A stretch of 15,187 nucleotides of DNA from a virus: the UHGV virus genome UHGV-1764962; one strand, given 5' to 3'. The position numbers and the translations under genes were made by a program. A model generated the notes under the pieces. That model was not told the DNA's origin. It did no database searches and worked only from the letters and a program-made list of their open reading frames with translations. Positions 1,653 through 15,187 of the stretch are shown piece after piece; the stretch's first letter is position 1, and the number at the start of each line of letters is the position of its first letter.

Positions 1653-2498
1653 ATGCTGGCTAAAGTCACTTTCCTGAGCTGTATAACGATGAGCGATTTT
1701 ACTTTTTCTGGCTATGAATTGGCCTGCTTTGTAACACACTCCGGTCTATCCCGTAGCGCCGGGCATATCCTGTCGCAATGTGCAAATCTCGCGGCAACAA
1801 CCAGTGAATACTTCATTCACAAGCCTCACCGCCTGATCGCGGCAGAAACTGGTTATAGCCAATCAACCGTCGTTCGTGCATTCCGTGAAGCTGTAAACAA
1901 AGGAATCCTGTCTGTAGAGATTGTTATCGGCGATCACCGTGAACGTCGCGCTAACCTGTACCGGTTTACACCATCCTTTTTGGCCTTCGCACAACAAGCC
2001 AAAAATGCGCTGACTGAAAGCAAATTAAAGATCTCTTCAGCGGCAACCAAGGTTAAAGCTGTTATCGCTAAGTCATTGGCTTTATTTAATTTTATATCCA
2101 CACCCCCATGTCAAAATGATACCCCCTCCCCCTGTCAGGATGACGTGGCAATAAAGAATAAGAAGTCACAAGTTAAAAAAACAAAAAGATCAGTTTCCGG
2201 CGGTGCCGGAACGTCCAGACTCAAAAAATTGACTTCATGGATCGCTGAGGCAAAAGCAAAGGCTGACAATCTGCGGTTATCCCAAAAACGCGCTCAAAAA
2301 CATGAGTTCAAGCAGAAAGTAGAGGCGGCTGCGCGGAAATATGCTTACCTGAAGAACAAGCGTTCGCCTGATATTGGCGGGATATCAAACTTCGATAACC
2401 TACCGCATTGCATGACGGTAAACGAAGCTCTTAATGCGGTTTTAGCCAAAAATAAAGATAACGAACAATGGGGTATACCGGCGGGATTCAGAGGGTGA
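1653..2498 (+). CDS. repL: RepL-like lytic replication initiator, 281 aa
   Basis: Immediately downstream of kilA on the same strand; length matches my recollection of P1 RepL. In P1 the lytic origin oriL lies inside repL (established knowledge, not verifiable here). Start could alternatively be the ATG at 1689. Confidence 0.6.
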   Translation: MLAKVTFLSCITMSDFTFSGYELACFVTHSGLSRSAGHILSQCANLAATTSEYFIHKPHRLIAAETGYSQSTVVRAFREAVNKGILSVEIVIGDHRERRANLYRFTPSFLAFAQQAKNALTESKLKISSAATKVKAVIAKSLALFNFISTPPCQNDTPSPCQDDVAIKNKKSQVKKTKRSVSGGAGTSRLKKLTSWIAEAKAKADNLRLSQKRAQKHEFKQKVEAAARKYAYLKNKRSPDIGGISNFDNLPHCMTVNEALNAVLAKNKDNEQWGIPAGFRG

Positions 2499-2719
2499 TA
2501 GATTGCTCTAATCTGGAGTCACCTGGCGTTTTCAGTATGGATTTTCTTTGGCGCGGTCTGGCCATTAGGGATCATGTTTGCTGCAACGTTTCTTCTGATG
2601 TGGGTATTCACCCTTCCAGGTGATTTCTATAGAAAAAAAGCCAGACATTGATACAATCGCTGCGGGTGCTTGAGGCTATCTGCTTCAGGCATTACCCGAA
2701 AAGCAGATAGAAGAAAGCC

Positions 2720-2783
2720 CCAGATAACATTACGCGTCCTGCAAGACGCTTAACATTAATCTGAGGCCATATCTATGCTTAGC
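2720..2783 (-). ncRNA. Predicted Sok-like antisense RNA (extent approximate)
   Basis: Minus-strand promoter-like elements: -35 TTGACC (reverse complement of 2814-2819) and -10 TAATCT (reverse complement of 2790-2795), 18-bp spacer. A transcript from here would be antisense to the mok start codon at 2775-2777, as Sok is in hok/sok. A 6-bp stem-loop lies at 2735-2750 but no clear U-tract terminator. Confidence 0.3.
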
Positions 2784-2981
2784 ATACGTAGATTAGCCTC
2801 TTACCGACCAAAAGGTCAAGGAGAAGCAGGCTATGAAGCAGCAAAAAGCGATGTTAATCGCTCTGATCGTCATCTGTTTAACCGTCATAGTGACGGCACT
2901 GGTAACGAGAAAAGACCTCTGCGAGGTACGAATCCGAACCGGCCAGACGGAGGTCACTGTCTTCACAGCCTACGAATCTGA
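2775..2981 (+). CDS. mok-like overlapping reading frame (modulator of killing) of the hok locus
   Basis: 68-codon frame starting 58 nt upstream of hok and overlapping it in another frame, ending 7 nt before the hok stop. An in-frame peptide just upstream of the hok ATG (PLTDQKVKEKQA) resembles the MokC N-terminal extension as I recall it. Confidence 0.35.
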   Translation: MLSIRRLASYRPKGQGEAGYEAAKSDVNRSDRHLFNRHSDGTGNEKRPLRGTNPNRPDGGHCLHSLRI

Positions 2982-2988
2982 AAGGTAA
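2833..2988 (+). CDS. hok: Hok/Gef-family type I toxin (small membrane protein), 51 aa
   Basis: ATG at 2833 with SD aaggaga 8 nt upstream; translation MKQQKAMLIALIVICLTVIVTALVTRKDLCEVRIRTGQTEVTVFTAYESER has a single TM helix and the two conserved Cys, and is near-identical to HokD/RelF and HokC/Gef as I recall them. Too short to appear in the ORF track. Confidence 0.8.
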   Translation: MKQQKAMLIALIVICLTVIVTALVTRKDLCEVRIRTGQTEVTVFTAYESER

Positions 2989-2995
2989 GAGACCT

Positions 2996-3015
2996 GGCGG
3001 GGAGAGATCCCCGCC
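2996..3015 (+). other. GC-rich stem-loop with GAGA tetraloop in the hok 3' region
   Basis: 8-bp stem ggcgggga (2996-3003) / tccccgcc (3008-3015) with loop gaga, 8 nt after the hok stop; consistent with a 3' fold-back or stabilising structure. Confidence 0.4.
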
Positions 3016-3062
3016 ACTCTTCGTGTGTCAGGTATCCTCAATGCACCCTTTCCTCTCCAAAT

Positions 3063-5067: not shown

Positions 5068-6558
5068 TTACTTAATAAGCAGCGGTACGCCCTGGATACG
5101 ACGGGCTACGCCAGTCGGGCAGCAGGCCCAGACTACTTCCCATTTATCGAATTCCGCCTGCGTAACTTTCAGCACATACGGTTCTGTACCGTCAGGGCTA
5201 TGCTTCATCTGGCGGGCTAACTGGACAAAGAAACGGCTGATTGCATTCATCAGGGATGGGACGTGCTGGAAGTGCAGATAGTTATCCTGCGTGCAGCAAG
5301 TTAAAGCATCGTCGATGATCATCTGGCCAGAGGTGCCAACAGATACTTTATTGAGGCGGCCCTTAACCATTGCTTCTTCGTCCGGGGTATCTTCCGGATA
5401 CAGCGGTTGAATTGACGCACGAGCAATGACGGCACGTTCTTCACCAGCCGGTGAGTAATGCCAACCGCCGACATCAGAGTTTTTCTTGACGCCACGAGCT
5501 TTCGCCGCATACGCCGCGCCAGACAGACCGAAGACCACACGGGATTGGGTCCATTTGTCTTTGCAGGAGAACGGGAAGTGATAGACAGCACAGCTTACAT
5601 AATCGGTACCAAGTAAACCGGTATCTTCAACAGCAGAGAGCGCTTCCGTGTACGTCAATGTCGGTTTGACATCAAAGAAGCCATCAATCAGGCGATCAGA
5701 ACAGATATTACCTAACGCGGTGATCGCCGCATTGTCATAGCAACCCAGGCCGAGAACAGCGGTGTACATGTACGGCGCATTGTTCAGCACCTTAACCGCA
5801 CGCAGGTAGGCTTCGGTGGAGATTTTCGACTGATCGCCGTTGGTACCGCCAGTGAACGCCAGTGATTTTTTATTTGTTACTTTCGCGGTCGAAATCAGCT
5901 CTTCATTAACAACCGCGCGCAGATATTTAGAACGGGCTTCCAGAGCCGTAGGCAGATAACACAAGCGGCCCATGTCATCTTTCGCTTCTTCCGCCAAAGA
6001 CACAGTGTGTGTCTCCAGGGTCGTTACCACGCCGAGCGAAGTCGTCTGGGTCAGTTTCAGGAGGAAGCGTTCATTACCTGCGCTGTCCGCTGTTGCCGTT
6101 TCAATGGTTAACTCACGGGTAGGTGAAATACACGGATCACCATCATCAACGTAGATAGCAAAGGCTTCGCCGCTATCAAGTTCAATTTCAGAACCGTATG
6201 GCAACGCACTGTAAGCCGGTTCGCCTGATTCATCGAACATAATAACCGGGAACTTCGCATCATCCGGAACAGCACGGACAACATAACCAGACGTTTGCTG
6301 AATAGCTTCGTATACATGGCGAATTGGTTCGAACTGTGAGCCGGAAGACGGCTTCAGCGGTTCGCCGAGAACATCTTCGTAATTGGACTCAGTAACCGCA
6401 AGAACAGTAAACGGCTTGCCACGCGCAAATACGCCAATACCAGCCCACAAGCTGCTATTTAATGCAACACCTGTAGATAACGTCGCATCGGCATTGATCG
6501 GGCTAACCGCGACGCCGGATGCATTACCTAATGACTGTTGAATTGAATATTGAGACAT
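5068..6558 (-). CDS. Putative contractile tail sheath protein, 496 aa
   Basis: ATG at 6558 with SD agggaaag; sits directly downstream of the head gene, as sheath (gene 22) follows head (gene 23) in the P1 map as I recall it. Assignment by gene order and size, not by search. Confidence 0.5.
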   Translation of the reverse strand: MSQYSIQQSLGNASGVAVSPINADATLSTGVALNSSLWAGIGVFARGKPFTVLAVTESNYEDVLGEPLKPSSGSQFEPIRHVYEAIQQTSGYVVRAVPDDAKFPVIMFDESGEPAYSALPYGSEIELDSGEAFAIYVDDGDPCISPTRELTIETATADSAGNERFLLKLTQTTSLGVVTTLETHTVSLAEEAKDDMGRLCYLPTALEARSKYLRAVVNEELISTAKVTNKKSLAFTGGTNGDQSKISTEAYLRAVKVLNNAPYMYTAVLGLGCYDNAAITALGNICSDRLIDGFFDVKPTLTYTEALSAVEDTGLLGTDYVSCAVYHFPFSCKDKWTQSRVVFGLSGAAYAAKARGVKKNSDVGGWHYSPAGEERAVIARASIQPLYPEDTPDEEAMVKGRLNKVSVGTSGQMIIDDALTCCTQDNYLHFQHVPSLMNAISRFFVQLARQMKHSPDGTEPYVLKVTQAEFDKWEVVWACCPTGVARRIQGVPLLIK

Positions 6559-8376: not shown

Positions 8377-8404
8377 ATTTTATTGAAAGTCACTTGTTGA
8401 CTTT
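8377..8404 (-). promoter_or_regulatory. Candidate late promoter for the head/sheath operon (-10 TAAAAT plus upstream inverted repeat)
   Basis: On the minus strand: inverted repeat AAAGTCA-N5-TGACTTT (8386-8404) followed 3 nt later by TAAAAT (reverse complement of 8377-8382). No -35 hexamer, an architecture resembling activator-dependent phage late promoters. Confidence 0.3.
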
Positions 8405-10779: not shown

Positions 10780-10870
10780 GCTGTATTTTTGAATTTAATT
10801 AAAAATGCTGCATAAAATAATAATGTATGCACAGATGCTTGTACATAGCATTCTCTGCATGTTTGGTTCA
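10780..10870 (-). promoter_or_regulatory. parA promoter/operator region (AT-rich with imperfect palindromes)
   Basis: AT-rich intergenic region directly upstream of parA containing the palindrome atgc-t-gcat (10805-10813) and a recurring tgcat motif. In P1 ParA autoregulates from an inverted-repeat operator here (established knowledge); exact site not resolved. Confidence 0.35.
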
Positions 10871-10902
10871 TTTTGCACGATTGAGAGTTACAAGGAGGGC
10901 AC

Positions 10903-10923
10903 AAAAAAGCCCCGTTCAGGGGC
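10903..10923 (-). terminator. Rho-independent terminator after the T5orf172-like gene
   Basis: Stem gcccc (10909-10913) / ggggc (10919-10923), loop gttca; on the minus strand it is followed by a six-U run (plus-strand aaaaaa 10903-10908), 8 nt after the CDS stop. Confidence 0.6.
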
Positions 10924-10930
10924 ATCAGTG

Positions 10931-11740
10931 TTATTTGCTAAGAGCAGCGAATAATCGTTCGAAATCGATAGTATCTATAGCACGCGTAAGCGCCGGAAGT
11001 TCAGCCTCAAAGTACCCGTGTCGATCGTAAAAGAAGGGACCGAAGAGCGAGGCATGTTGGATTCTACTTCGCCCCAGCCCGGACACACAGTTAAGCCCAT
11101 TACCGGCTAAAAGGCTAAAAAACTTCTCTGGATTATCGTGGTAAAGCTGGGAATCAATGGTGGCGGTTAACTCTTCCATAGGGAAGCACACCCGCCTTGT
11201 CTCCCAGGGATATTTAGTCCGAAGCATAAACATTGCTTTCAGCAATTCACATTGAGCGCGGATCGCGTCCGGTTCATAGCCAGATATGGAGACATAAGCC
11301 ACGTCCCTCATTCCTGCGTCATCTTTGAAAGTCACGATAGAAGTAACATCCAGCTCTTTTTCGAAAGAGCGGGCAGCATCTACTGGACGCTGAAGTAAAT
11401 CATTCGACTTAATGCGCTCGAGAATCCCTCCCCACATCTCATTTAGATATTCGATATGAGCCAAAACCTTATCAAGACACTCTCGTGTAAACCATTCAGT
11501 ATGCCCGCCACCAGCGCTTTTCTCCCACGGCGCATTCCAGGGGAAAAAGGTTGCGTGTAAAGCCCGCTCAAGATTAACTATTGCCAAACGCGTACCACGA
11601 TAGACCCGTGAAAGCGCAAAATCGGGACTCACTTGTAGCCCTTTAAACCGTGCCAATGGACCACATGAAATGCCGATTTTAAAAGTATCTCCGTTCTCCG
11701 GCACCAGAACGTAGAGGTAGTGTTGTTTCTCTTCTTGCAT
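10931..11740 (-). CDS. Hypothetical protein with N-terminal T5orf172/GIY-YIG-like putative nuclease domain, 269 aa (UpfA-position gene)
   Basis: N-terminal ~100 aa carry the T5orf172 pattern: YLYVL ... FKIGIS ... LERALHATF ... GGGHTEWF ... LDKVLAHIEYL. Located between the incA-like iterons and parA. Weak SD. Confidence 0.55.
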   Translation of the reverse strand: MQEEKQHYLYVLVPENGDTFKIGISCGPLARFKGLQVSPDFALSRVYRGTRLAIVNLERALHATFFPWNAPWEKSAGGGHTEWFTRECLDKVLAHIEYLNEMWGGILERIKSNDLLQRPVDAARSFEKELDVTSIVTFKDDAGMRDVAYVSISGYEPDAIRAQCELLKAMFMLRTKYPWETRRVCFPMEELTATIDSQLYHDNPEKFFSLLAGNGLNCVSGLGRSRIQHASLFGPFFYDRHGYFEAELPALTRAIDTIDFERLFAALSK

Positions 11741-11773
11741 ATCAATACCACTGCTTGATGAGAACCGCGCAAA

Positions 11774-12030
11774 TGTTGACTATGCGCGAAAGTTAATGTG
11801 AATAGTTGACTATGCGCGATGTGACTACAGTCAAAAGTTGACTGTAGTCGATTTAACTCCACCAAAGATCGACTATGTAAGATATTGTCGGGAGAAACGT
11901 TGACTATACGCGATGAAATGACCCTAAAAGCCATCTCAATAGCGACTTGCAGAATATTGACGCCAGCAAAAATCCACCAGCGTCAACGAATGTCGCCTAT
12001 AGTCAACTTCTCGCTATCGCATATAGTCAA
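11774..12030. repeat. Downstream iteron array (incA-like copy-control locus), mixed orientation
   Basis: Iteron-like 15-16-mers: gttgactatgcgcga at 11774-11788 and 11804-11818, gttgactgtagtcga at 11836-11850, gttgactatacgcga at 11898-11912 (all inverse orientation relative to the origin iterons); forward copies tcgcctatagtcaac at 11992-12006 and atcgcatatagtcaat at 12015-12030. A perfect 10-bp inverted pair gactacagtc / gactgtagtc lies at 11822-11848. Confidence 0.75.
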
Positions 12031-12032
12031 TA

Positions 12033-12917
12033 TTATGGATTGCGCTTATGGATCTGGAAGCCGATTTTCCTGCCGTTTTTTATCTCTGAAAATTTAAGAT
12101 ATTCAATAGCTTCCAAATCTTTCATGGCTTTTCTGATAACGCTATTTTGCACGCTAACGGATGATTTGAGATTAAGCCTTGCTCTAAGGCGCTCAATGCT
12201 GACAGGTGCCGGGTTGGCGGGTAGAGCCTCAAAGAATGTATACAGTACCTTGGCCGTCTCTTTGCGCCCGAGCTTATCCAGCATCTTCAGCTTCAGGATT
12301 CGCTTATAGTCAACATAGTAAAGTTCAGATAGCTGTTTCTGCGGCTGGATCTCGATAACATCAAGCTCGGTATTCAGGCTGCTATATGCCAACAAGTTGA
12401 CGTTAATGTTATTGAGATGACCTTTTGCCGCCGGGAAGCGGAATTTGACAACTGTCTGCTGAATGCGTGTCAGAGAGTCATCAATACTTTTACGGAACGC
12501 CTTTGAAAGGCGCTTACGTGGATAGCCGCATCGATCGGCAAACTCGGAGAATGGCAGGGTGATTATGCCGTCATCATCAGGTGCGTAGTCAAACAACGCG
12601 GAGGTTATGCCCACCCACACCTTAAAATCAGTATCCATATCCAGGCGTGGGCCATGAATTTCAATTCCCTCATAGCCTTCCTGCTCAACAATTTTAAGGC
12701 TTGATAGTTCTTCGGTTGCGTTCGTTGTGTTTGTAGTAACTGACGATCCGCGACGTAGTGCCACATTGGTAGATTTTAAGGTTGGCACAAACACACCTAA
12801 GCGCAACAAAGCGATAGGTTGTATAGTGCTGTTGTTATTGGGCTTCAGGCTGTGGATTTCTCCTGTATTTCCTGCAACTTCTTCAACGCTAAGGAAGCCT
12901 TTACTTTCTTCCGGCAT
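12033..12917 (-). CDS. repA: Iteron-binding plasmid replication initiator RepA, 294 aa
   Basis: ORF flanked by iteron arrays on both sides; ATG at 12917 with SD ggaga; upstream array overlaps the promoter position, as in autoregulated RepA genes. Confidence 0.8.
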   Translation of the reverse strand: MPEESKGFLSVEEVAGNTGEIHSLKPNNNSTIQPIALLRLGVFVPTLKSTNVALRRGSSVTTNTTNATEELSSLKIVEQEGYEGIEIHGPRLDMDTDFKVWVGITSALFDYAPDDDGIITLPFSEFADRCGYPRKRLSKAFRKSIDDSLTRIQQTVVKFRFPAAKGHLNNINVNLLAYSSLNTELDVIEIQPQKQLSELYYVDYKRILKLKMLDKLGRKETAKVLYTFFEALPANPAPVSIERLRARLNLKSSVSVQNSVIRKAMKDLEAIEYLKFSEIKNGRKIGFQIHKRNP

Positions 12918-12997
12918 CGTGGTTTCTCCATGTGTGGCGCGGCCTGGCGTTAATTTAGATGACTGTTATCAACAGCTGTGAATATTCAGGCTCTAAA

Positions 12998-13098
12998 ATC
13001 GCGTACAGTCAACGTTTCTGTCGCGTATAGTCAACAATAAATCGCGTGCAGTCAACATAAAATCGCACACAGTCAACATAAAATCGCGTATAGTCAAT
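12998..13098 (-). repeat. Origin iterons (incC-like): five direct repeats with about 21-bp periodicity
   Basis: atcgcgtacagtcaac (12998-13013), tcgcgtatagtcaac (13021-13035), atcgcgtgcagtcaac (13041-13056), atcgcacacagtcaac (13062-13077), atcgcgtatagtcaat (13083-13098); centre-to-centre spacing 21-22 bp. Confidence 0.85.
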
Positions 13099-13101
13099 GT
13101 T

Positions 13102-13209
13102 GATCCCGTTTCAGGCCATGAACGGCGCGGCTTACAGCGATCCGGGATCTTCTTTGGATCTTCCTAGGTTCTCTTTGGGATCTGTTTATTGGATCTATGC
13201 TGTGGATAA
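13102..13209. other. Plasmid replication origin core: GATC-rich AT region plus consensus DnaA box
   Basis: Six GATC sites (13102, 13139, 13146, 13157, 13179, 13192), four of them inside repeated GGATCT motifs; perfect DnaA box TGTGGATAA (reverse complement TTATCCACA) at 13201-13209. Organisation matches the DnaA box / GATC heptamer / five-iteron layout known for P1 oriR. Confidence 0.6.
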
Positions 13210-13218
13210 GTTGAATAA

Positions 13219-13241
13219 ACCGGCCAACATAGCCGGTTGGA
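13219..13241 (-). terminator. Terminator-like hairpin downstream of the 130-aa gene
   Basis: Stem aaccggc (13219-13225) / gccggtt (13233-13239), loop caacata; on the minus strand followed by tattcaactt (weak U-run). Confidence 0.35.
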
Positions 13242-13251
13242 AGGAAGGGTA

Positions 13252-13644
13252 TTATTCTACGCTTTCGATAAGAAGACCATGTTCATAACATTTAAGCTCA
13301 TCGCCTTCGTACAGGAATTGGTATCCAATACCACCATATTCAGGCACATTAGGGAATAACTCATCACTTACCGAAGAACAAATCACACCAATGCAGCGAT
13401 CAACGCCTTCTCGTTCTTCAGTGCTGAAAAAATCCTCTTCGGTAAGAACATGAGTACATTGCTCATCAGCATAGGTCGGAAATACATGCTCGATGCAATC
13501 CGGGTGTTTTAAACCAAGCTGATCGGCAAGCTCGAAAGCATGACGGTATTGTTCAGATCCTGGCTTGCCAACAGTGATGTGCTCAATTTTGTAGATTGAA
13601 GTCGCTTTGTTGATAGTTTGCTTTACTGTTACTTTATCAGACAT
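13252..13644 (-). CDS. Hypothetical acidic Cys/His-rich small protein, 130 aa
   Basis: ATG at 13644 with SD aaggga; Asp/Glu-rich with several Cys and His; no recognisable family. Confidence 0.5.
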   Translation of the reverse strand: MSDKVTVKQTINKATSIYKIEHITVGKPGSEQYRHAFELADQLGLKHPDCIEHVFPTYADEQCTHVLTEEDFFSTEEREGVDRCIGVICSSVSDELFPNVPEYGGIGYQFLYEGDELKCYEHGLLIESVE

Positions 13645-13655
13645 AAAAATCCCTT

Positions 13656-13988
13656 TTAGTTACCGCTGATAGCGCGGTTGTAATCATTAACGTTGCGATT
13701 CTTCCTGTTAATCCCCATCAGCATCGTTTCTGTATCAAGGATATAGGCTGGCAGATCATCAAAATATTCACTGCTAAACTCTGGCATCCTGCACATAAAT
13801 GCACTTTTGGGGGCAGGGTGGTTAACCTTTGTCGGCGTCGGCGTTAAATTCGCTGATCGACTGCCGGAGCAACCGCTGAGTGTCAGCAGGAATGCGCTGG
13901 CGAACATTACCCGCCGCAACCAGTTGTTTCTGAACTTCAGCTTTTCGTTCCATTTGCCTGTCAGCATATTTGGCTTGTTCTGATTCAT
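13656..13988 (-). CDS. Outer-membrane lipoprotein, o-spanin (Rz1)-like, 110 aa precursor
   Basis: Signal peptide with lipobox LTLSGC (Cys 40); ATG at 13988 with SD aggaag; the gene starts inside the 3' end of the upstream i-spanin-like gene in another frame and extends beyond it. Confidence 0.5.
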   Translation of the reverse strand: MNQNKPNMLTGKWNEKLKFRNNWLRRVMFASAFLLTLSGCSGSRSANLTPTPTKVNHPAPKSAFMCRMPEFSSEYFDDLPAYILDTETMLMGINRKNRNVNDYNRAISGN

Positions 13989-14244
13989 TTTTCACTTCCT
14001 GGCTGTGAAAATGTTGCTCTGCTTTGTTCATCGTCTCAATGGTCTGGTTAAGATCCATTATTGACTTATCACGTTCCTTAACAGCCTGATCAAGACTGCC
14101 AATTTTCTCCATAGCTTGCTTTAGCTGATGACGTTCCCATGCAAACCCAGCACCAACAAGTGCGCAAATCAGAACAAGAACACCAGTAGCAGCAAGTTTC
14201 TCCTTCAAAGACAAAGCTGTTTTTAACGTAGAAAAGAATGACAT
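13822..14244 (-). CDS. Inner-membrane spanin (Rz)-like protein, about 140 aa
   Basis: Probable start is the ATG at 14242-14244 (MSFFSTLK...) with strong SD aggagg and 5-nt spacer; the ORF-track start at 14271 is TTG. N-terminal TM segment LAATGVLVLICALVGAGFAW followed by a charged, coiled-coil-prone periplasmic domain. Confidence 0.5.
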   Translation of the reverse strand: MSFFSTLKTALSLKEKLAATGVLVLICALVGAGFAWERHQLKQAMEKIGSLDQAVKERDKSIMDLNQTIETMNKAEQHFHSQEVKNESEQAKYADRQMERKAEVQKQLVAAGNVRQRIPADTQRLLRQSISEFNADADKG

Positions 14245-14283
14245 GTCTTCCTCCTGAAGAAAAATTATCAATGAAGTCCTTTG

Positions 14284-14946
14284 TTACTGTGCCGCTTTGT
14301 TTAATTCATCAAGAACAGAATCAGGAACCAAAGCGGCAACTGCGCTGGCTGTGCTGACCTTATTTGCTGATGCTTCCGCAAGCGCGGTACCGATAGCATG
14401 GTTATAAGCAGTTATGGCTACGTTGGCGCTTTCATTCGCTCGTTCATACTGCTGTTGTAACGCAGTTGTGGGCGCTGTTGTCTGGTTGAAAACAACCCCA
14501 AACTGTTCAGTTGCTACTTTCAGAGATTCAATTTGCTCTTCTGTTAGTGCTGGTGGGGGAGTGGCAGTGCCGCCGCCTGAACCAGAGCCTGACGAGCTTC
14601 CTGAGCCAGTGTTAAGGGTCTGGTTAATCTCCCCCATAGCAGCGACTAAACTTGATGTATTAAGCGCGTTAACAGCGTCCTCAAGCGATTTAGTAATATT
14701 CACATCACCAATGGCAATAGAGATCGGCAGTTCTGAAACTTCTCGCTCATTAGCACGGCAGTAAACATCCCAACCAATATCGAGTTGAAGCAGCATTGAC
14801 AGATCTGCATAACCAGCCAACAGGTCCGCGTGCTTAGTTGCCAGTTCTCCAATGTTCGTTAAGCCGGTTGTGGTTGTTCTTATCGTTGAAACATAGCTGG
14901 TAATAGTGTCGGGATAGACAATTGTATCCAGAATTAATCCGGTCAA
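14284..14946 (-). CDS. Hypothetical protein, at least 220 aa, probably the C-terminal portion of a gene interrupted by the IS5-family element
   Basis: Minus-strand frame stays open from 14284 through the IS boundary at 14976 to a stop inside the IS (15019-15021); the ORF-track start is a TTG without SD. Contains a Thr-rich segment and a Gly/Ser linker (TGSGSSSGSGSGGGTATPPP). Confidence 0.4.
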   Translation of the reverse strand: MTGLILDTIVYPDTITSYVSTIRTTTTGLTNIGELATKHADLLAGYADLSMLLQLDIGWDVYCRANEREVSELPISIAIGDVNITKSLEDAVNALNTSSLVAAMGEINQTLNTGSGSSSGSGSGGGTATPPPALTEEQIESLKVATEQFGVVFNQTTAPTTALQQQYERANESANVAITAYNHAIGTALAEASANKVSTASAVAALVPDSVLDELNKAAQ

Positions 14947-14975: not shown

Positions 14976-15187
14976 GGAAGGTGCGAATAAGCGGGGAAAT
15001 TCTTCTCGGCTGACTCAGTCATTTCATTTCTTCATGTTTGAGCCGATTTTTTCTCCCGTAAATGCCTTGAATCAGCCTATTTAGGCTATTTTTTCCACCA
15101 TTTCTGGCGTTATTTCCGGTTTTTACTGAGATCTCTCCCACTGACGTATCATTTGGTCCACCCGAAGCAGGTTGGCCAGGGTGAATA
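14976..15187. mobile_element. IS5-family insertion sequence, terminal 212 bp (truncated by the window/contig end)
   Basis: Begins with the 16-bp IS5 terminal inverted repeat GGAAGGTGCGAATAAG (14976-14991), preceded by TTAG (14972-14975), which fits the IS5 YTAR target. The first ~110 bp match my recollection of the IS5 end, with patchy divergence further in. Confidence 0.8.

What the first reader, a model, noticed from the sequence alone, without database searches (positions are those of the whole stretch)
13656..14244. Overlapping Rz/Rz1-like spanin gene pair located next to the plasmid replicon
A type-II membrane protein with a coiled-coil periplasmic domain is followed by a lipoprotein gene that starts inside its 3' end in another frame (167-bp overlap). 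This is the textbook overlapped i-spanin/o-spanin arrangement. No holin or endolysin gene is adjacent, so the pair sits apart from the rest of the lysis functions.
Basis: partly seen in the sequence, partly recalled or inferred. Interest (0 to 1): 0.5.

Follow-up and report, generated by a model that had tools for sequence, protein, structure and literature searches.

The report
Known phage P1 spanin gene pair
These are the ppfA and mlp genes of a P1-like phage-plasmid, an overlapping gene pair already catalogued as the phage's outer-membrane-breaking "spanin" lysis proteins, so the reading is right but not new.

Summary
On the minus strand, ppfA (13822-14244, 140 aa) overlaps mlp (13656-13988, 110 aa) by 167 nt, with mlp in the +1 frame. 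PpfA has an N-terminal transmembrane helix followed by a long helical periplasmic domain. Mlp carries the lipobox L-S-G-C with Cys40.

The window is a P1-like phage-plasmid, 98.6% identical to P1 across this stretch. The pair lies upstream of upfA, the oriR iterons and repA, and the window holds no holin or endolysin gene.

The spanin reading is well supported:
- PpfA matches phrog_89 at 1e-25, the family that also holds P2 LysB.
- Mlp aligns to P2 LysC at 5e-8.
- The overlapped lipoprotein frame is kept in four more lineages, down to about 33% Mlp identity.
- In the 3' half of the overlap all three codon positions are conserved (at least 0.845, against about 0.45 at third positions elsewhere). 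That is a dual-coding signature.

It is not new. Kongari et al. 2018 list P1 gp064/gp063 as an overlapped two-component spanin, and RefSeq calls mlp an "Rz-like spanin".

Function has never been tested, and CRISPRi knock-down scored both genes non-essential. In this genome an IS5-like element truncates upfB about 730 nt upstream of ppfA.

The parts
13822..14244 (-). ppfA: predicted i-spanin, 140 aa, type II inner-membrane protein with a helical periplasmic domain
   Evidence: ORF and start codon. 98.6-99.3% identical to P1-group PpfA. phrog_89 'Rz-like spanin' at 1.1e-25, the family of P2 LysB. AF2 helices at 13-110 and 120-137.
14250..14255 (-). Shine-Dalgarno AGGAGG of ppfA, 5 nt before the ATG
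   Evidence: Sequence. The same site is listed for P1 gp064 in Kongari 2018 Table S1.
14140..14196 (-). codons 17-35 of ppfA: the predicted transmembrane helix
   Evidence: Kyte-Doolittle 19-aa window mean 2.35. Lys8, Lys14 and Lys16 lie on the N-terminal side.
13656..13988 (-). mlp: predicted o-spanin, a 110-aa lipoprotein precursor giving a 71-aa mature protein that starts at Cys40
   Evidence: ORF. phrog_30284 at 2e-77 and phrog_456 at 4e-5, both 'Rz-like spanin'. BLASTP against P2 LysC gives 37% over 68 aa, E 5e-8. LipoP cleavage at 39|40 is reported for P1 Mlp in Kongari 2018 Table S1.
13995..14000 (-). Shine-Dalgarno-like AGGAAG of mlp, 6 nt before the ATG, lying inside ppfA
   Evidence: Sequence. 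GGAGG sits at the equivalent place in JK004 and pCFSAN001636.
13869..13880 (-). lipobox codons CTC AGC GGT TGC (L37-S38-G39-C40) of mlp
   Evidence: Sequence. L37 and C40 are invariant in the seven-sequence Mlp/LysC alignment.
13822..13988 (.). 167-nt segment read in two frames: PpfA residues 86-140 and Mlp residues 1-55, plus two bases of codon 56
   Evidence: Measured against relatives with about 60% PpfA identity. In the 3' half of the overlap all three codon positions are at least 0.845 identical. Third positions are 0.435 in ppfA-only sequence and 0.473 in mlp-only sequence.
13224..13240 (-). terminator-like hairpin after upfA, the likely end of the transcription unit that contains ppfA and mlp
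   Evidence: Consensus scan only. The number of such sites does not exceed the shuffles, so this is weak evidence.

Best explanation
The pair is the ppfA-mlp two-component spanin of a P1-like phage-plasmid. It is a distant relative of P2 LysB/LysC and has the same overlapped gene layout.

Inferred mechanism, by analogy with lambda Rz/Rz1:
1. PpfA inserts in the inner membrane through its N-terminal helix, N-in and C-out. It extends a long helical, probably coiled-coil, stalk into the periplasm.
2. Mlp is exported. It is lipidated at Cys40 and cleaved by signal peptidase II. Because residue +2 is Ser, it is sorted to the inner leaflet of the outer membrane.
3. The C-terminal parts of the two proteins bind across the periplasm, and the complex is caged by the peptidoglycan mesh.
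4. The holin (LydA) and the SAR-endolysin (Lyz), encoded elsewhere in the genome, destroy the wall.
5. The freed complexes then collapse and fuse the inner and outer membranes. This removes the last barrier to phage release.

Shown here: the genes, their overlap, the targeting signals, the predicted helical fold, homology to the LysB/LysC families, and selection on both frames.

Inferred only: protein processing, complex formation, membrane fusion and timing of expression.
For: Identity of the locus:
- 98.6% nucleotide identity to P1 62998-64098, where the genes are annotated ppfA and mlp ('Rz-like spanin').

Targeting signals:
- PpfA has a transmembrane helix at residues 17-35 with basic residues on its N-terminal side.
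- Mlp has the lipobox LSG|C with Ser at +2.
- Kongari 2018 report LipoP cleavage at position 39 for P1 Mlp. The window's Mlp differs from it only by S7N and V32A.

Fold:
- AF2 gives one long helix at 13-110, a break at 111-119 and a second helix at 120-137.
- Heptad a/d enrichment was reached by 29 of 2000 shuffles.

Homology:
- PpfA hits phrog_89 at 1.1e-25 over nearly its full length, and P2 LysB hits the same family at 5.8e-61.
- Mlp hits phrog_456 at 4e-5, and P2 LysC hits it at 1.7e-31. LysC hits the Mlp family phrog_30284 in return at 5e-4.
- BLASTP of Mlp against LysC gives E 5e-8.
- The weak NCBIfam hits point the same way: LysB for PpfA and LysC for Mlp.

Conservation:
- An overlapped lipobox ORF of 109-111 aa follows the PpfA homologue in four further lineages. 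These are Cronobacter phage JK004, Salmonella pCFSAN001636, a ~94-kb P1-like contig (L008) and a metagenome contig (L012). The overlaps are 164-179 nt.
- Mlp Cys66 is invariant across these sequences and P2 LysC.
- The codon-position profile shows dual coding.
- PpfA is found in 631 PLSDB plasmids and Mlp in 657.

Literature:
- PMC6139136 Table S1 and PMC9025707.
Against: - No experiment has tested the function. PMC9025707 says so explicitly.
- In a genome-wide CRISPRi screen of P1, mlp gave EOP 0.24/0.19 and ppfA 1.3/1.2. Both were scored non-essential, whereas lambda Rz was scored essential in the same study (PMC10695390).
- No match to the -22 box of the annotated late promoter LP23 (AAGTGACTT, one mismatch allowed) lies upstream of ppfA, upfB or upfC in the P1 reference. 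Only predicted sigma-70 promoters are annotated there.
- The pair is not in a lysis cassette.
- The Mlp signal peptide is 39 residues long. Kongari 2018 flagged it 'too long signal sequence', with no PROSITE hit.
- PpfA has no periplasmic cysteine.
- Both NCBIfam scores are far below the curated cut-offs: 19.5 against 92.75, and 14.3 against 27.
- There is no detectable similarity to lambda Rz (BLASTP E 0.37).
Confidence: 0.85

Rival explanations
1. The pair descends from spanins but is dispensable, redundant or repurposed in P1-like elements. For example, it could be an envelope function expressed from sigma-70 promoters in the plasmid prophage rather than a late lysis function.
For: - CRISPRi scored both genes non-essential.
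- No match to the LP23 late-promoter -22 box lies upstream in P1.
- The position, between a PAAR-type gene (upfC), upfB and the plasmid origin, is far from lyz and lydA.
- In this window an IS5-like element cuts the operon about 730 nt upstream of ppfA, yet both reading frames stay intact.
Against: - Both proteins are under purifying selection, and the overlap is kept across lineages down to about 33% Mlp identity.
- Both genes occur in more than 600 P1-like plasmids.
- By general knowledge, spanins are harmless before the wall is degraded. Early or constitutive expression would therefore not conflict with a lysis role.
- Spanin defects are known to be masked in shaken cultures. A weak knock-down phenotype is therefore not decisive.
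Confidence: 0.1
2. The o-spanin is real but starts further in. Candidates are TTG 13919 (residue 24, giving M-RRVMFASAFLLTLSG|C, a textbook 16-residue signal peptide) or ATG 13907. The true overlap would then be 98 or 86 nt, not 167 nt.
For: - P2 LysC Met1 aligns with Mlp residue 24.
- pCFSAN001636 has an ATG at that aligned position.
- The 39-residue signal peptide is unusually long.
- The 5' half of the overlap is less conserved than the 3' half: 0.68-0.70 against 0.86-0.87 nucleotide identity.
Against: - No Shine-Dalgarno sequence precedes TTG 13919 or ATG 13907, whereas AGGAAG precedes ATG 13988.
- JK004 and L008 have no ATG, GTG or TTG between the upstream ATG and the lipobox, so the long form is their only option.
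- All five lineages keep an upstream ATG in the same frame, giving a 109-111 aa product.
Confidence: 0.12
3. mlp is not a gene. It is a chance open frame across the 3' end of ppfA and the ppfA-upfA spacer.
For: The +1 frame inside ppfA stays open in 14662 of 20000 synonymous-codon shuffles, so openness alone proves nothing. PGAP and several phage annotations omit or truncate mlp.
Against: - The mlp-only part shows the codon-position pattern of a coding region: identity 0.78, 0.88 and 0.47 at positions 1, 2 and 3.
- The lipobox and Cys66 are conserved in all lineages.
- Mlp is homologous to P2 LysC.
- Omission of overlapped o-spanin genes by gene callers is a documented artefact (PMC6139136).
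Confidence: 0.01

Closest known systems
Phage P1 ppfA (gp064) / mlp (gp063), and the same genes in P7, SJ46, RCS47 and other Punavirus members
   Same: The same genes. PpfA is 97-99% identical in phage records, and 100%-identical copies occur in plasmids. The window's Mlp differs from P1 Mlp by only two residues. Lengths, start sites, the 167-nt overlap and the downstream neighbour (upfA, then the origin) all match.
   Different: Compared with P1, PpfA carries I45M and E128Q, and Mlp carries S7N and V32A. In this genome upfB is truncated by an IS5-like element, and the adjacent repA/incA is of the SJ46 type rather than the P1 type.
Phage P2 LysB / LysC, the prototype of the overlapped spanin architecture
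   Same: The layout is the same: the o-spanin gene starts in the +1 frame inside the 3' end of the i-spanin gene and runs past it. The overlap is 146 nt in P2 and 167 nt here. The protein sizes are similar (141/96 aa against 140/110 aa). PpfA and LysB share phrog_89. Mlp and LysC hit each other's PHROGs and align at E 5e-8, including the conserved Cys-x-Met-Pro motif.
   Different: PpfA and LysB show no significant pairwise similarity (E 61). Both NCBIfam equivalog cut-offs are missed. The P2 genes sit in a lysis cassette after Y, K and lysA, whereas the P1 pair does not. Mlp has about 23 extra N-terminal residues.
Phage lambda Rz / Rz1
   Same: The same predicted division of labour and topology: a type II inner-membrane protein with two helical segments joined by a linker, plus a small outer-membrane lipoprotein encoded in the +1 frame.
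   Different: Rz1 is fully embedded in Rz, whereas mlp only overlaps ppfA. There is no detectable sequence similarity (E 0.37), and the PHROGs differ: 13 and 3198 for lambda against 89 and 30284/456 here. Rz has two periplasmic cysteines and PpfA has none.

Membership tests
Two-component spanin (i-spanin + o-spanin) | The i-spanin has a single N-terminal transmembrane domain with N-in/C-out (type II) topology | tested here: met
   Residues 17-35 have a Kyte-Doolittle mean of 2.35. K8, K14 and K16 precede them, and no other hydrophobic segment exists. The helix is continuous from residue 13 in the AF2 model. This is prediction only.
Two-component spanin (i-spanin + o-spanin) | The periplasmic domain of the i-spanin is mostly alpha-helical or coiled-coil, in two segments joined by a linker | tested here: met
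   AF2 gives helix 13-110, a break at 111-119 (AAGNVRQRIP) and helix 120-137, with pLDDT 69.6. Heptad a/d enrichment was reached by 29 of 2000 shuffles. Oligomerisation was not modelled.
Two-component spanin (i-spanin + o-spanin) | The o-spanin has a signal peptidase II lipobox with the Cys to be lipidated, and no inner-membrane retention signal (Asp at +2) | tested here: met
   The lipobox is L-S-G-C40 with Ser at +2. It is conserved in all relatives. LipoP cleavage at position 39 is reported for P1 Mlp. Caveat: Cys at position 40 lies outside the 15-35 window that I recall the PROSITE lipoprotein rule using. Kongari 2018 record no PROSITE hit and the comment 'too long signal sequence'.
Two-component spanin (i-spanin + o-spanin) | The o-spanin gene is embedded in, overlapping, or directly downstream of the i-spanin gene | tested here: met
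   The overlap is 167 nt in the +1 frame. It is kept at 164-179 nt in four other lineages.
Two-component spanin (i-spanin + o-spanin) | At least one periplasmic cysteine in either partner, for an intermolecular disulfide (507 of 528 catalogued systems) | tested here: met
   Mlp Cys66 is invariant, including in P2 LysC. PpfA has only Cys27, inside the transmembrane domain. The frequency comes from PMC6139136.
Two-component spanin (i-spanin + o-spanin) | Location in a lysis cassette with holin and endolysin (typical, not obligatory) | tested here: not met
   No holin or endolysin family was found in any window ORF that was scanned. P1 keeps its lysis genes in several unlinked operons (PMC9025707).
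Two-component spanin (i-spanin + o-spanin) | Late expression during lytic growth | tested here: inconclusive
   No match to the LP23 -22 box upstream of ppfA, upfB or upfC in P1. Only predicted sigma-70 promoters are annotated. No transcript data for these genes was found in the papers searched.
Two-component spanin (i-spanin + o-spanin) | Disrupts the outer membrane after wall degradation, and complements lambda Rz/Rz1 mutants | not testable with these tools
   Needs genetics. The literature states the function is unverified. CRISPRi scored both genes non-essential.
P2 LysB / LysC equivalogs (NCBIfam TIGR03495 and NF038368) | Score above the curated whole-protein cut-off | tested here: not met
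   PpfA scores 19.5 bits against a cut-off of 92.75. Mlp scores 14.3 bits against a cut-off of 27. They are remote homologues, sharing PHROGs 89 and 456, not equivalogs.
Lambda Rz / Rz1 family (embedded architecture) | Sequence similarity to Rz/Rz1, with the o-spanin gene wholly inside the i-spanin gene | tested here: not met
   BLASTP E 0.37. The PHROGs differ. mlp extends 166 nt beyond the ppfA stop codon.

The most novel reading that the evidence does not exclude
The P1-type o-spanin has an unusually long signal peptide of about 39 residues, with a basic n-region of about 26 residues. Its length is conserved across all five lineages examined, while its sequence is not. No match to the LP23 late-promoter -22 box was found, and knock-down had little effect. 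Together these could mean that the P1-type spanin is regulated in an unusual way. One possibility is slow or conditional export and processing of Mlp acting as a timing device. Another is expression outside the late programme, including in the plasmid prophage. Nothing here excludes this, but simple constraints could explain it equally well: the start codon and ribosome-binding site have to fit inside the ppfA reading frame.
Probability: 0.08. Interest if true: 0.35.

Novelty: already known. Interest (0 to 1): 0.1.

Why it matters
It matters little beyond correct annotation. The pair is the catalogued spanin of P1-like phage-plasmids, which are common in E. coli and Salmonella: more than 600 PLSDB plasmids carry it. 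Gene callers still often miss or truncate mlp, so recognising it improves annotation of these elements. The one open point of wider interest is that the function of the P1 spanin has never been tested. The only functional data are CRISPRi scores calling both genes non-essential, against an essential score for lambda Rz. That makes it a cheap experiment for someone studying the unusually dispersed lysis system of P1.

Tried and rejected
- A chance ORF. Openness of the +1 frame is not informative (73% of synonymous shuffles keep it). This was rejected on conservation and homology instead.
- An internal start for mlp (TTG 13919 or ATG 13907). It is attractive because it gives a canonical signal peptide and matches P2 LysC Met1. 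However, no Shine-Dalgarno sequence precedes either site, and two lineages have no internal start codon. It is kept as a minor rival.
- The longer TTG start for ppfA at 14271. It lacks a Shine-Dalgarno sequence, whereas ATG 14244 has AGGAGG.
- A search for distant PpfA relatives in classical lysis cassettes. The word-indexed search found only P1-like proteins. The exhaustive HMMER search of 1.84 billion representatives gave only 37 hits. The full-length ones come from P1-like elements (L008) or a 1.2-kb contig (L012). The rest are fragments or unrelated coiled-coil proteins.
- Pfam gave only sub-threshold coiled-coil noise for PpfA and nothing for Mlp.
- No relative has a solved structure.
- A late-promoter search using the -22 box of the annotated LP23 found nothing upstream of the operon. 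The sigma-70 and terminator scans did not exceed shuffles.
- Summer et al. 2007 and Lobocka et al. 2004 are not in the held library. What I say about them rests on citations in PMC9025707 and on my own memory.
- The P1 transcriptome papers searched do not mention these genes.

Full report
**What is in the sequence**

The finding lies on the minus strand. ppfA runs from 14244 to 13822. It has an ATG start and 140 codons, with AGGAGG 5 nt upstream. mlp runs from 13988 to 13656. It has an ATG start and 110 codons, with AGGAAG 6 nt upstream.

mlp starts 256 nt into ppfA, so it is read in the +1 frame. The two genes share 167 nt.

**Where the window comes from**

The 1.1 kb around the pair is 98.6% identical to phage P1 (NC_005856, 62998-64098). 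It is 97-99% identical to P7, SJ46, RCS47 and other Punavirus records.

In the P1 record the two genes are ppfA ("possible periplasmic function") and mlp. Downstream lie upfA, oriR with the incC iterons, and repA. Upstream lie upfB and the PAAR-type gene upfC.

The window has the same order:
- upfA at 13252-13644
- five iterons spaced 21 nt apart at 12994-13101
- repA at 12033-12917

The rest of the window holds an anti-repressor gene, kilA, repL, tail and head genes (bplB, pmgG, 21, 22, 23), parB and parA. No scanned ORF matches a holin or endolysin family.

**Protein features**

PpfA has one strongly hydrophobic stretch, residues 17-35, with a Kyte-Doolittle mean of 2.35. Three lysines precede it, which fits an N-in/C-out orientation.

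An AlphaFold2 model was built on 19 family members. It gives one long helix at 13-110, a break at 111-119 and a second helix at 120-137. Mean pLDDT is 69.6. Residues 46-73 show a heptad pattern of hydrophobic a/d positions that 29 of 2000 shuffles reach. About 35% of the periplasmic part is charged.

Mlp has a single lipobox, L37-S38-G39-C40, followed by Ser at +2. It would give a 71-residue mature protein with four prolines in its first 25 residues and one further cysteine, Cys66. PpfA has no periplasmic cysteine.

**Is the second frame real?**

Openness of the +1 frame is not evidence. 14662 of 20000 synonymous-codon shuffles of ppfA keep it open to the same extent. The evidence comes from comparison with relatives.

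Overlapped ORFs of 109-111 codons with a lipobox follow the PpfA homologue in four more lineages:

| Lineage | Locus | PpfA homologue | Mlp identity to window |
|---|---|---|---|
| Cronobacter phage JK004 | L003 | 60% identical | 65% |
| Salmonella plasmid pCFSAN001636 | L004 | 60% identical | 67% |
| ~94-kb P1-like contig | L008 | profile E 1e-21 | 47% |
| metagenome contig | L012 | profile E 3e-8 | 33% |

The overlaps in these lineages are 164-179 nt.

I compared the window with JK004 and pCFSAN001636 by codon position:

| Segment | Frame used | Position 1 | Position 2 | Position 3 |
|---|---|---|---|---|
| ppfA-only | ppfA | 0.68 | 0.718 | 0.435 |
| mlp-only | mlp | 0.782 | 0.882 | 0.473 |
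| 3' half of the overlap | ppfA | 0.893 | 0.862 | 0.845 |

The 3' half of the overlap encodes the PpfA C-terminus together with the Mlp h-region, lipobox and first mature residues. There all three positions are conserved, which is the signature of a stretch read in two frames.

Both proteins are widespread. PpfA occurs in 631 PLSDB plasmids and Mlp in 657.

**Relationship to known spanins**

- PpfA matches phrog_89 ("Rz-like spanin") at 1.1e-25 over almost its whole length. P2 LysB belongs to the same PHROG (5.8e-61).
- Mlp matches phrog_456 at 4e-5, which is the PHROG of P2 LysC (1.7e-31). LysC in turn hits the Mlp family phrog_30284.
- Mlp and LysC align directly: 37% over 68 residues, E 5e-8. 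The alignment includes the lipobox region and a conserved Cys-x-Met-Pro motif.
- P2 lysB/lysC have the same overlapped layout, with 146 nt shared.
- PpfA and LysB show no significant pairwise similarity.
- The NCBIfam LysB and LysC equivalog models are hit far below their cut-offs.
- There is no similarity to lambda Rz.

The pair is therefore a distant LysB/LysC-type spanin, not an equivalog and not an Rz/Rz1 family member. The PpfA family itself is narrow. An exhaustive HMMER search of 1.84 billion representative proteins returned only 37 hits. The full-length ones are from P1-like elements or a short contig.

**What is already published**

Kongari et al. 2018 (PMC6139136, Table S1) list P1 gp064 as an overlapped i-spanin and gp063 as an overlapped o-spanin. 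They give the same start sites and ribosome-binding sites that I found. Their remarks are "too long signal sequence", [quoted passage not shown], zero periplasmic cysteines in the i-spanin and one in the o-spanin.

Bednarek et al. 2022 (PMC9025707) state that the P1 spanin genes ppfA and mlp partially overlap and lie in an operon unlinked to the other lysis genes. They add that the genes were identified from predicted features by Summer et al. [quoted passage not shown] Their text swaps the i- and o- labels.

Piya et al. 2023 (PMC10695390) scored both genes non-essential by CRISPRi, with EOP 0.24/0.19 for mlp and 1.3/1.2 for ppfA. The same study scored lambda Rz essential.

**Most likely mechanism**

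By analogy with lambda Rz/Rz1, which is established knowledge about spanins rather than something tested here:
1. PpfA dimers anchored in the inner membrane and Mlp anchored in the outer membrane bind through their C-terminal regions across the periplasm.
2. The peptidoglycan holds them apart.
3. After LydA and Lyz have destroyed the wall, the complexes fuse the two membranes.

The invariant Mlp Cys66 could provide the intermolecular disulfide that most spanin systems carry.

The genes, the signals, the homology and the selection on both frames are shown here. Processing, complex formation, membrane fusion and timing are inferred.

**Points that do not fit neatly**

- The Mlp signal peptide is 39 residues long, with a basic n-region of about 26 residues. 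An internal TTG at 13919 would give a textbook signal peptide and matches LysC Met1. However, it has no Shine-Dalgarno sequence, and JK004 and L008 have no internal start codon at all. The long form is therefore probably genuine.
- No match to the -22 box of the annotated late promoter LP23 lies upstream of upfC, upfB or ppfA in P1. The timing of expression is unknown.
- The knock-down data argue against an essential role in plaque formation.

**Specific to this genome**

From 14976 to the end of the window the sequence is the terminal inverted repeat and interior of an IS5-like (ISKpn26-family) element. It has inserted in upfB at a TTAG target and removed the first ~40-60 codons of upfB (281 aa in P1 against a 220-aa ORF here; the phrog_1559 match starts at profile position 43). 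Any promoter upstream of upfC is thus separated from ppfA-mlp, yet both reading frames are intact.

**Verdict**

The feature is already known and catalogued, so interest is low.

Noticed in passing
window 14976-15187: The end of an IS5-like element (ISKpn26 family): GGAAGGTGCGAATAAG follows a TTAG target. It is inserted in upfB, whose remaining ORF (14284-14946) lacks the first ~40-60 codons (281 aa in P1). The element separates ppfA-mlp from whatever promoter lies upstream of upfC. The same junction occurs in E. coli plasmid p1585m1_C (NZ_CP086387), where the transposase gene is on the same strand as ppfA.
   Followed up: partly
window 10862-13123: The plasmid replicon next to the pair is not the P1 type. 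This stretch has no megablast match to P1 incA-repA-incC. From 11800 onward it matches Salmonella phage SJ46 at 97.9%. repA here is 294 aa, against 286 aa in P1.
   Followed up: partly
window 10931-11740 (minus strand): A 269-aa ORF lies between parA and repA. In P1 that interval holds only the incA iterons. It matches phrog_2876 (unknown function, 1.6e-192) and carries a T5orf172 domain (PF10544, 7e-6), a GIY-YIG-like nuclease fold. It may be a homing-endonuclease-like insert.
   Followed up: partly
window 2513-3062: P1 has about 1.8 kb here carrying rlfA, rlfB and pmgF. The window has about 550 nt that do not match P1.
   Followed up: no
window about 5187-5195 (gene 22, tail sheath): The alignment to P1 breaks here. 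About 90 nt of P1 (55545-55634) are absent, so the tail-sheath gene carries a deletion relative to P1. Its longest ATG ORF is 496 aa, against 529 aa in P1.
   Followed up: no
L004 3601-3963, L008 6864-7226: In the more distant P1-like lineages upfA, the gene after mlp, is replaced by a Gp49-family gene (PF13876), while ppfA-mlp is kept. upfA is therefore not an obligatory partner of the pair.
   Followed up: no
L002 1857-1988, L003 4458-4592, L013 1445-1623: Public annotations often truncate mlp to its last ~43-44 codons (SJ46, JK004) or list no gene for it (the PLSDB table for p1585m1_C, which is known to be incomplete). This matches the gene-caller bias against overlapped o-spanin genes described by Kongari et al. 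2018.
   Followed up: yes
window 1663-1671 and 8387-8395: Exact copies of the box AAGTGACTT, which is annotated as the -22 region of late promoter LP23. One sits upstream of gene 23, at the position of LP23. The other sits at the very start of repL. Nine matches with up to one mismatch were found in the window, against 3.7 expected.
   Followed up: no
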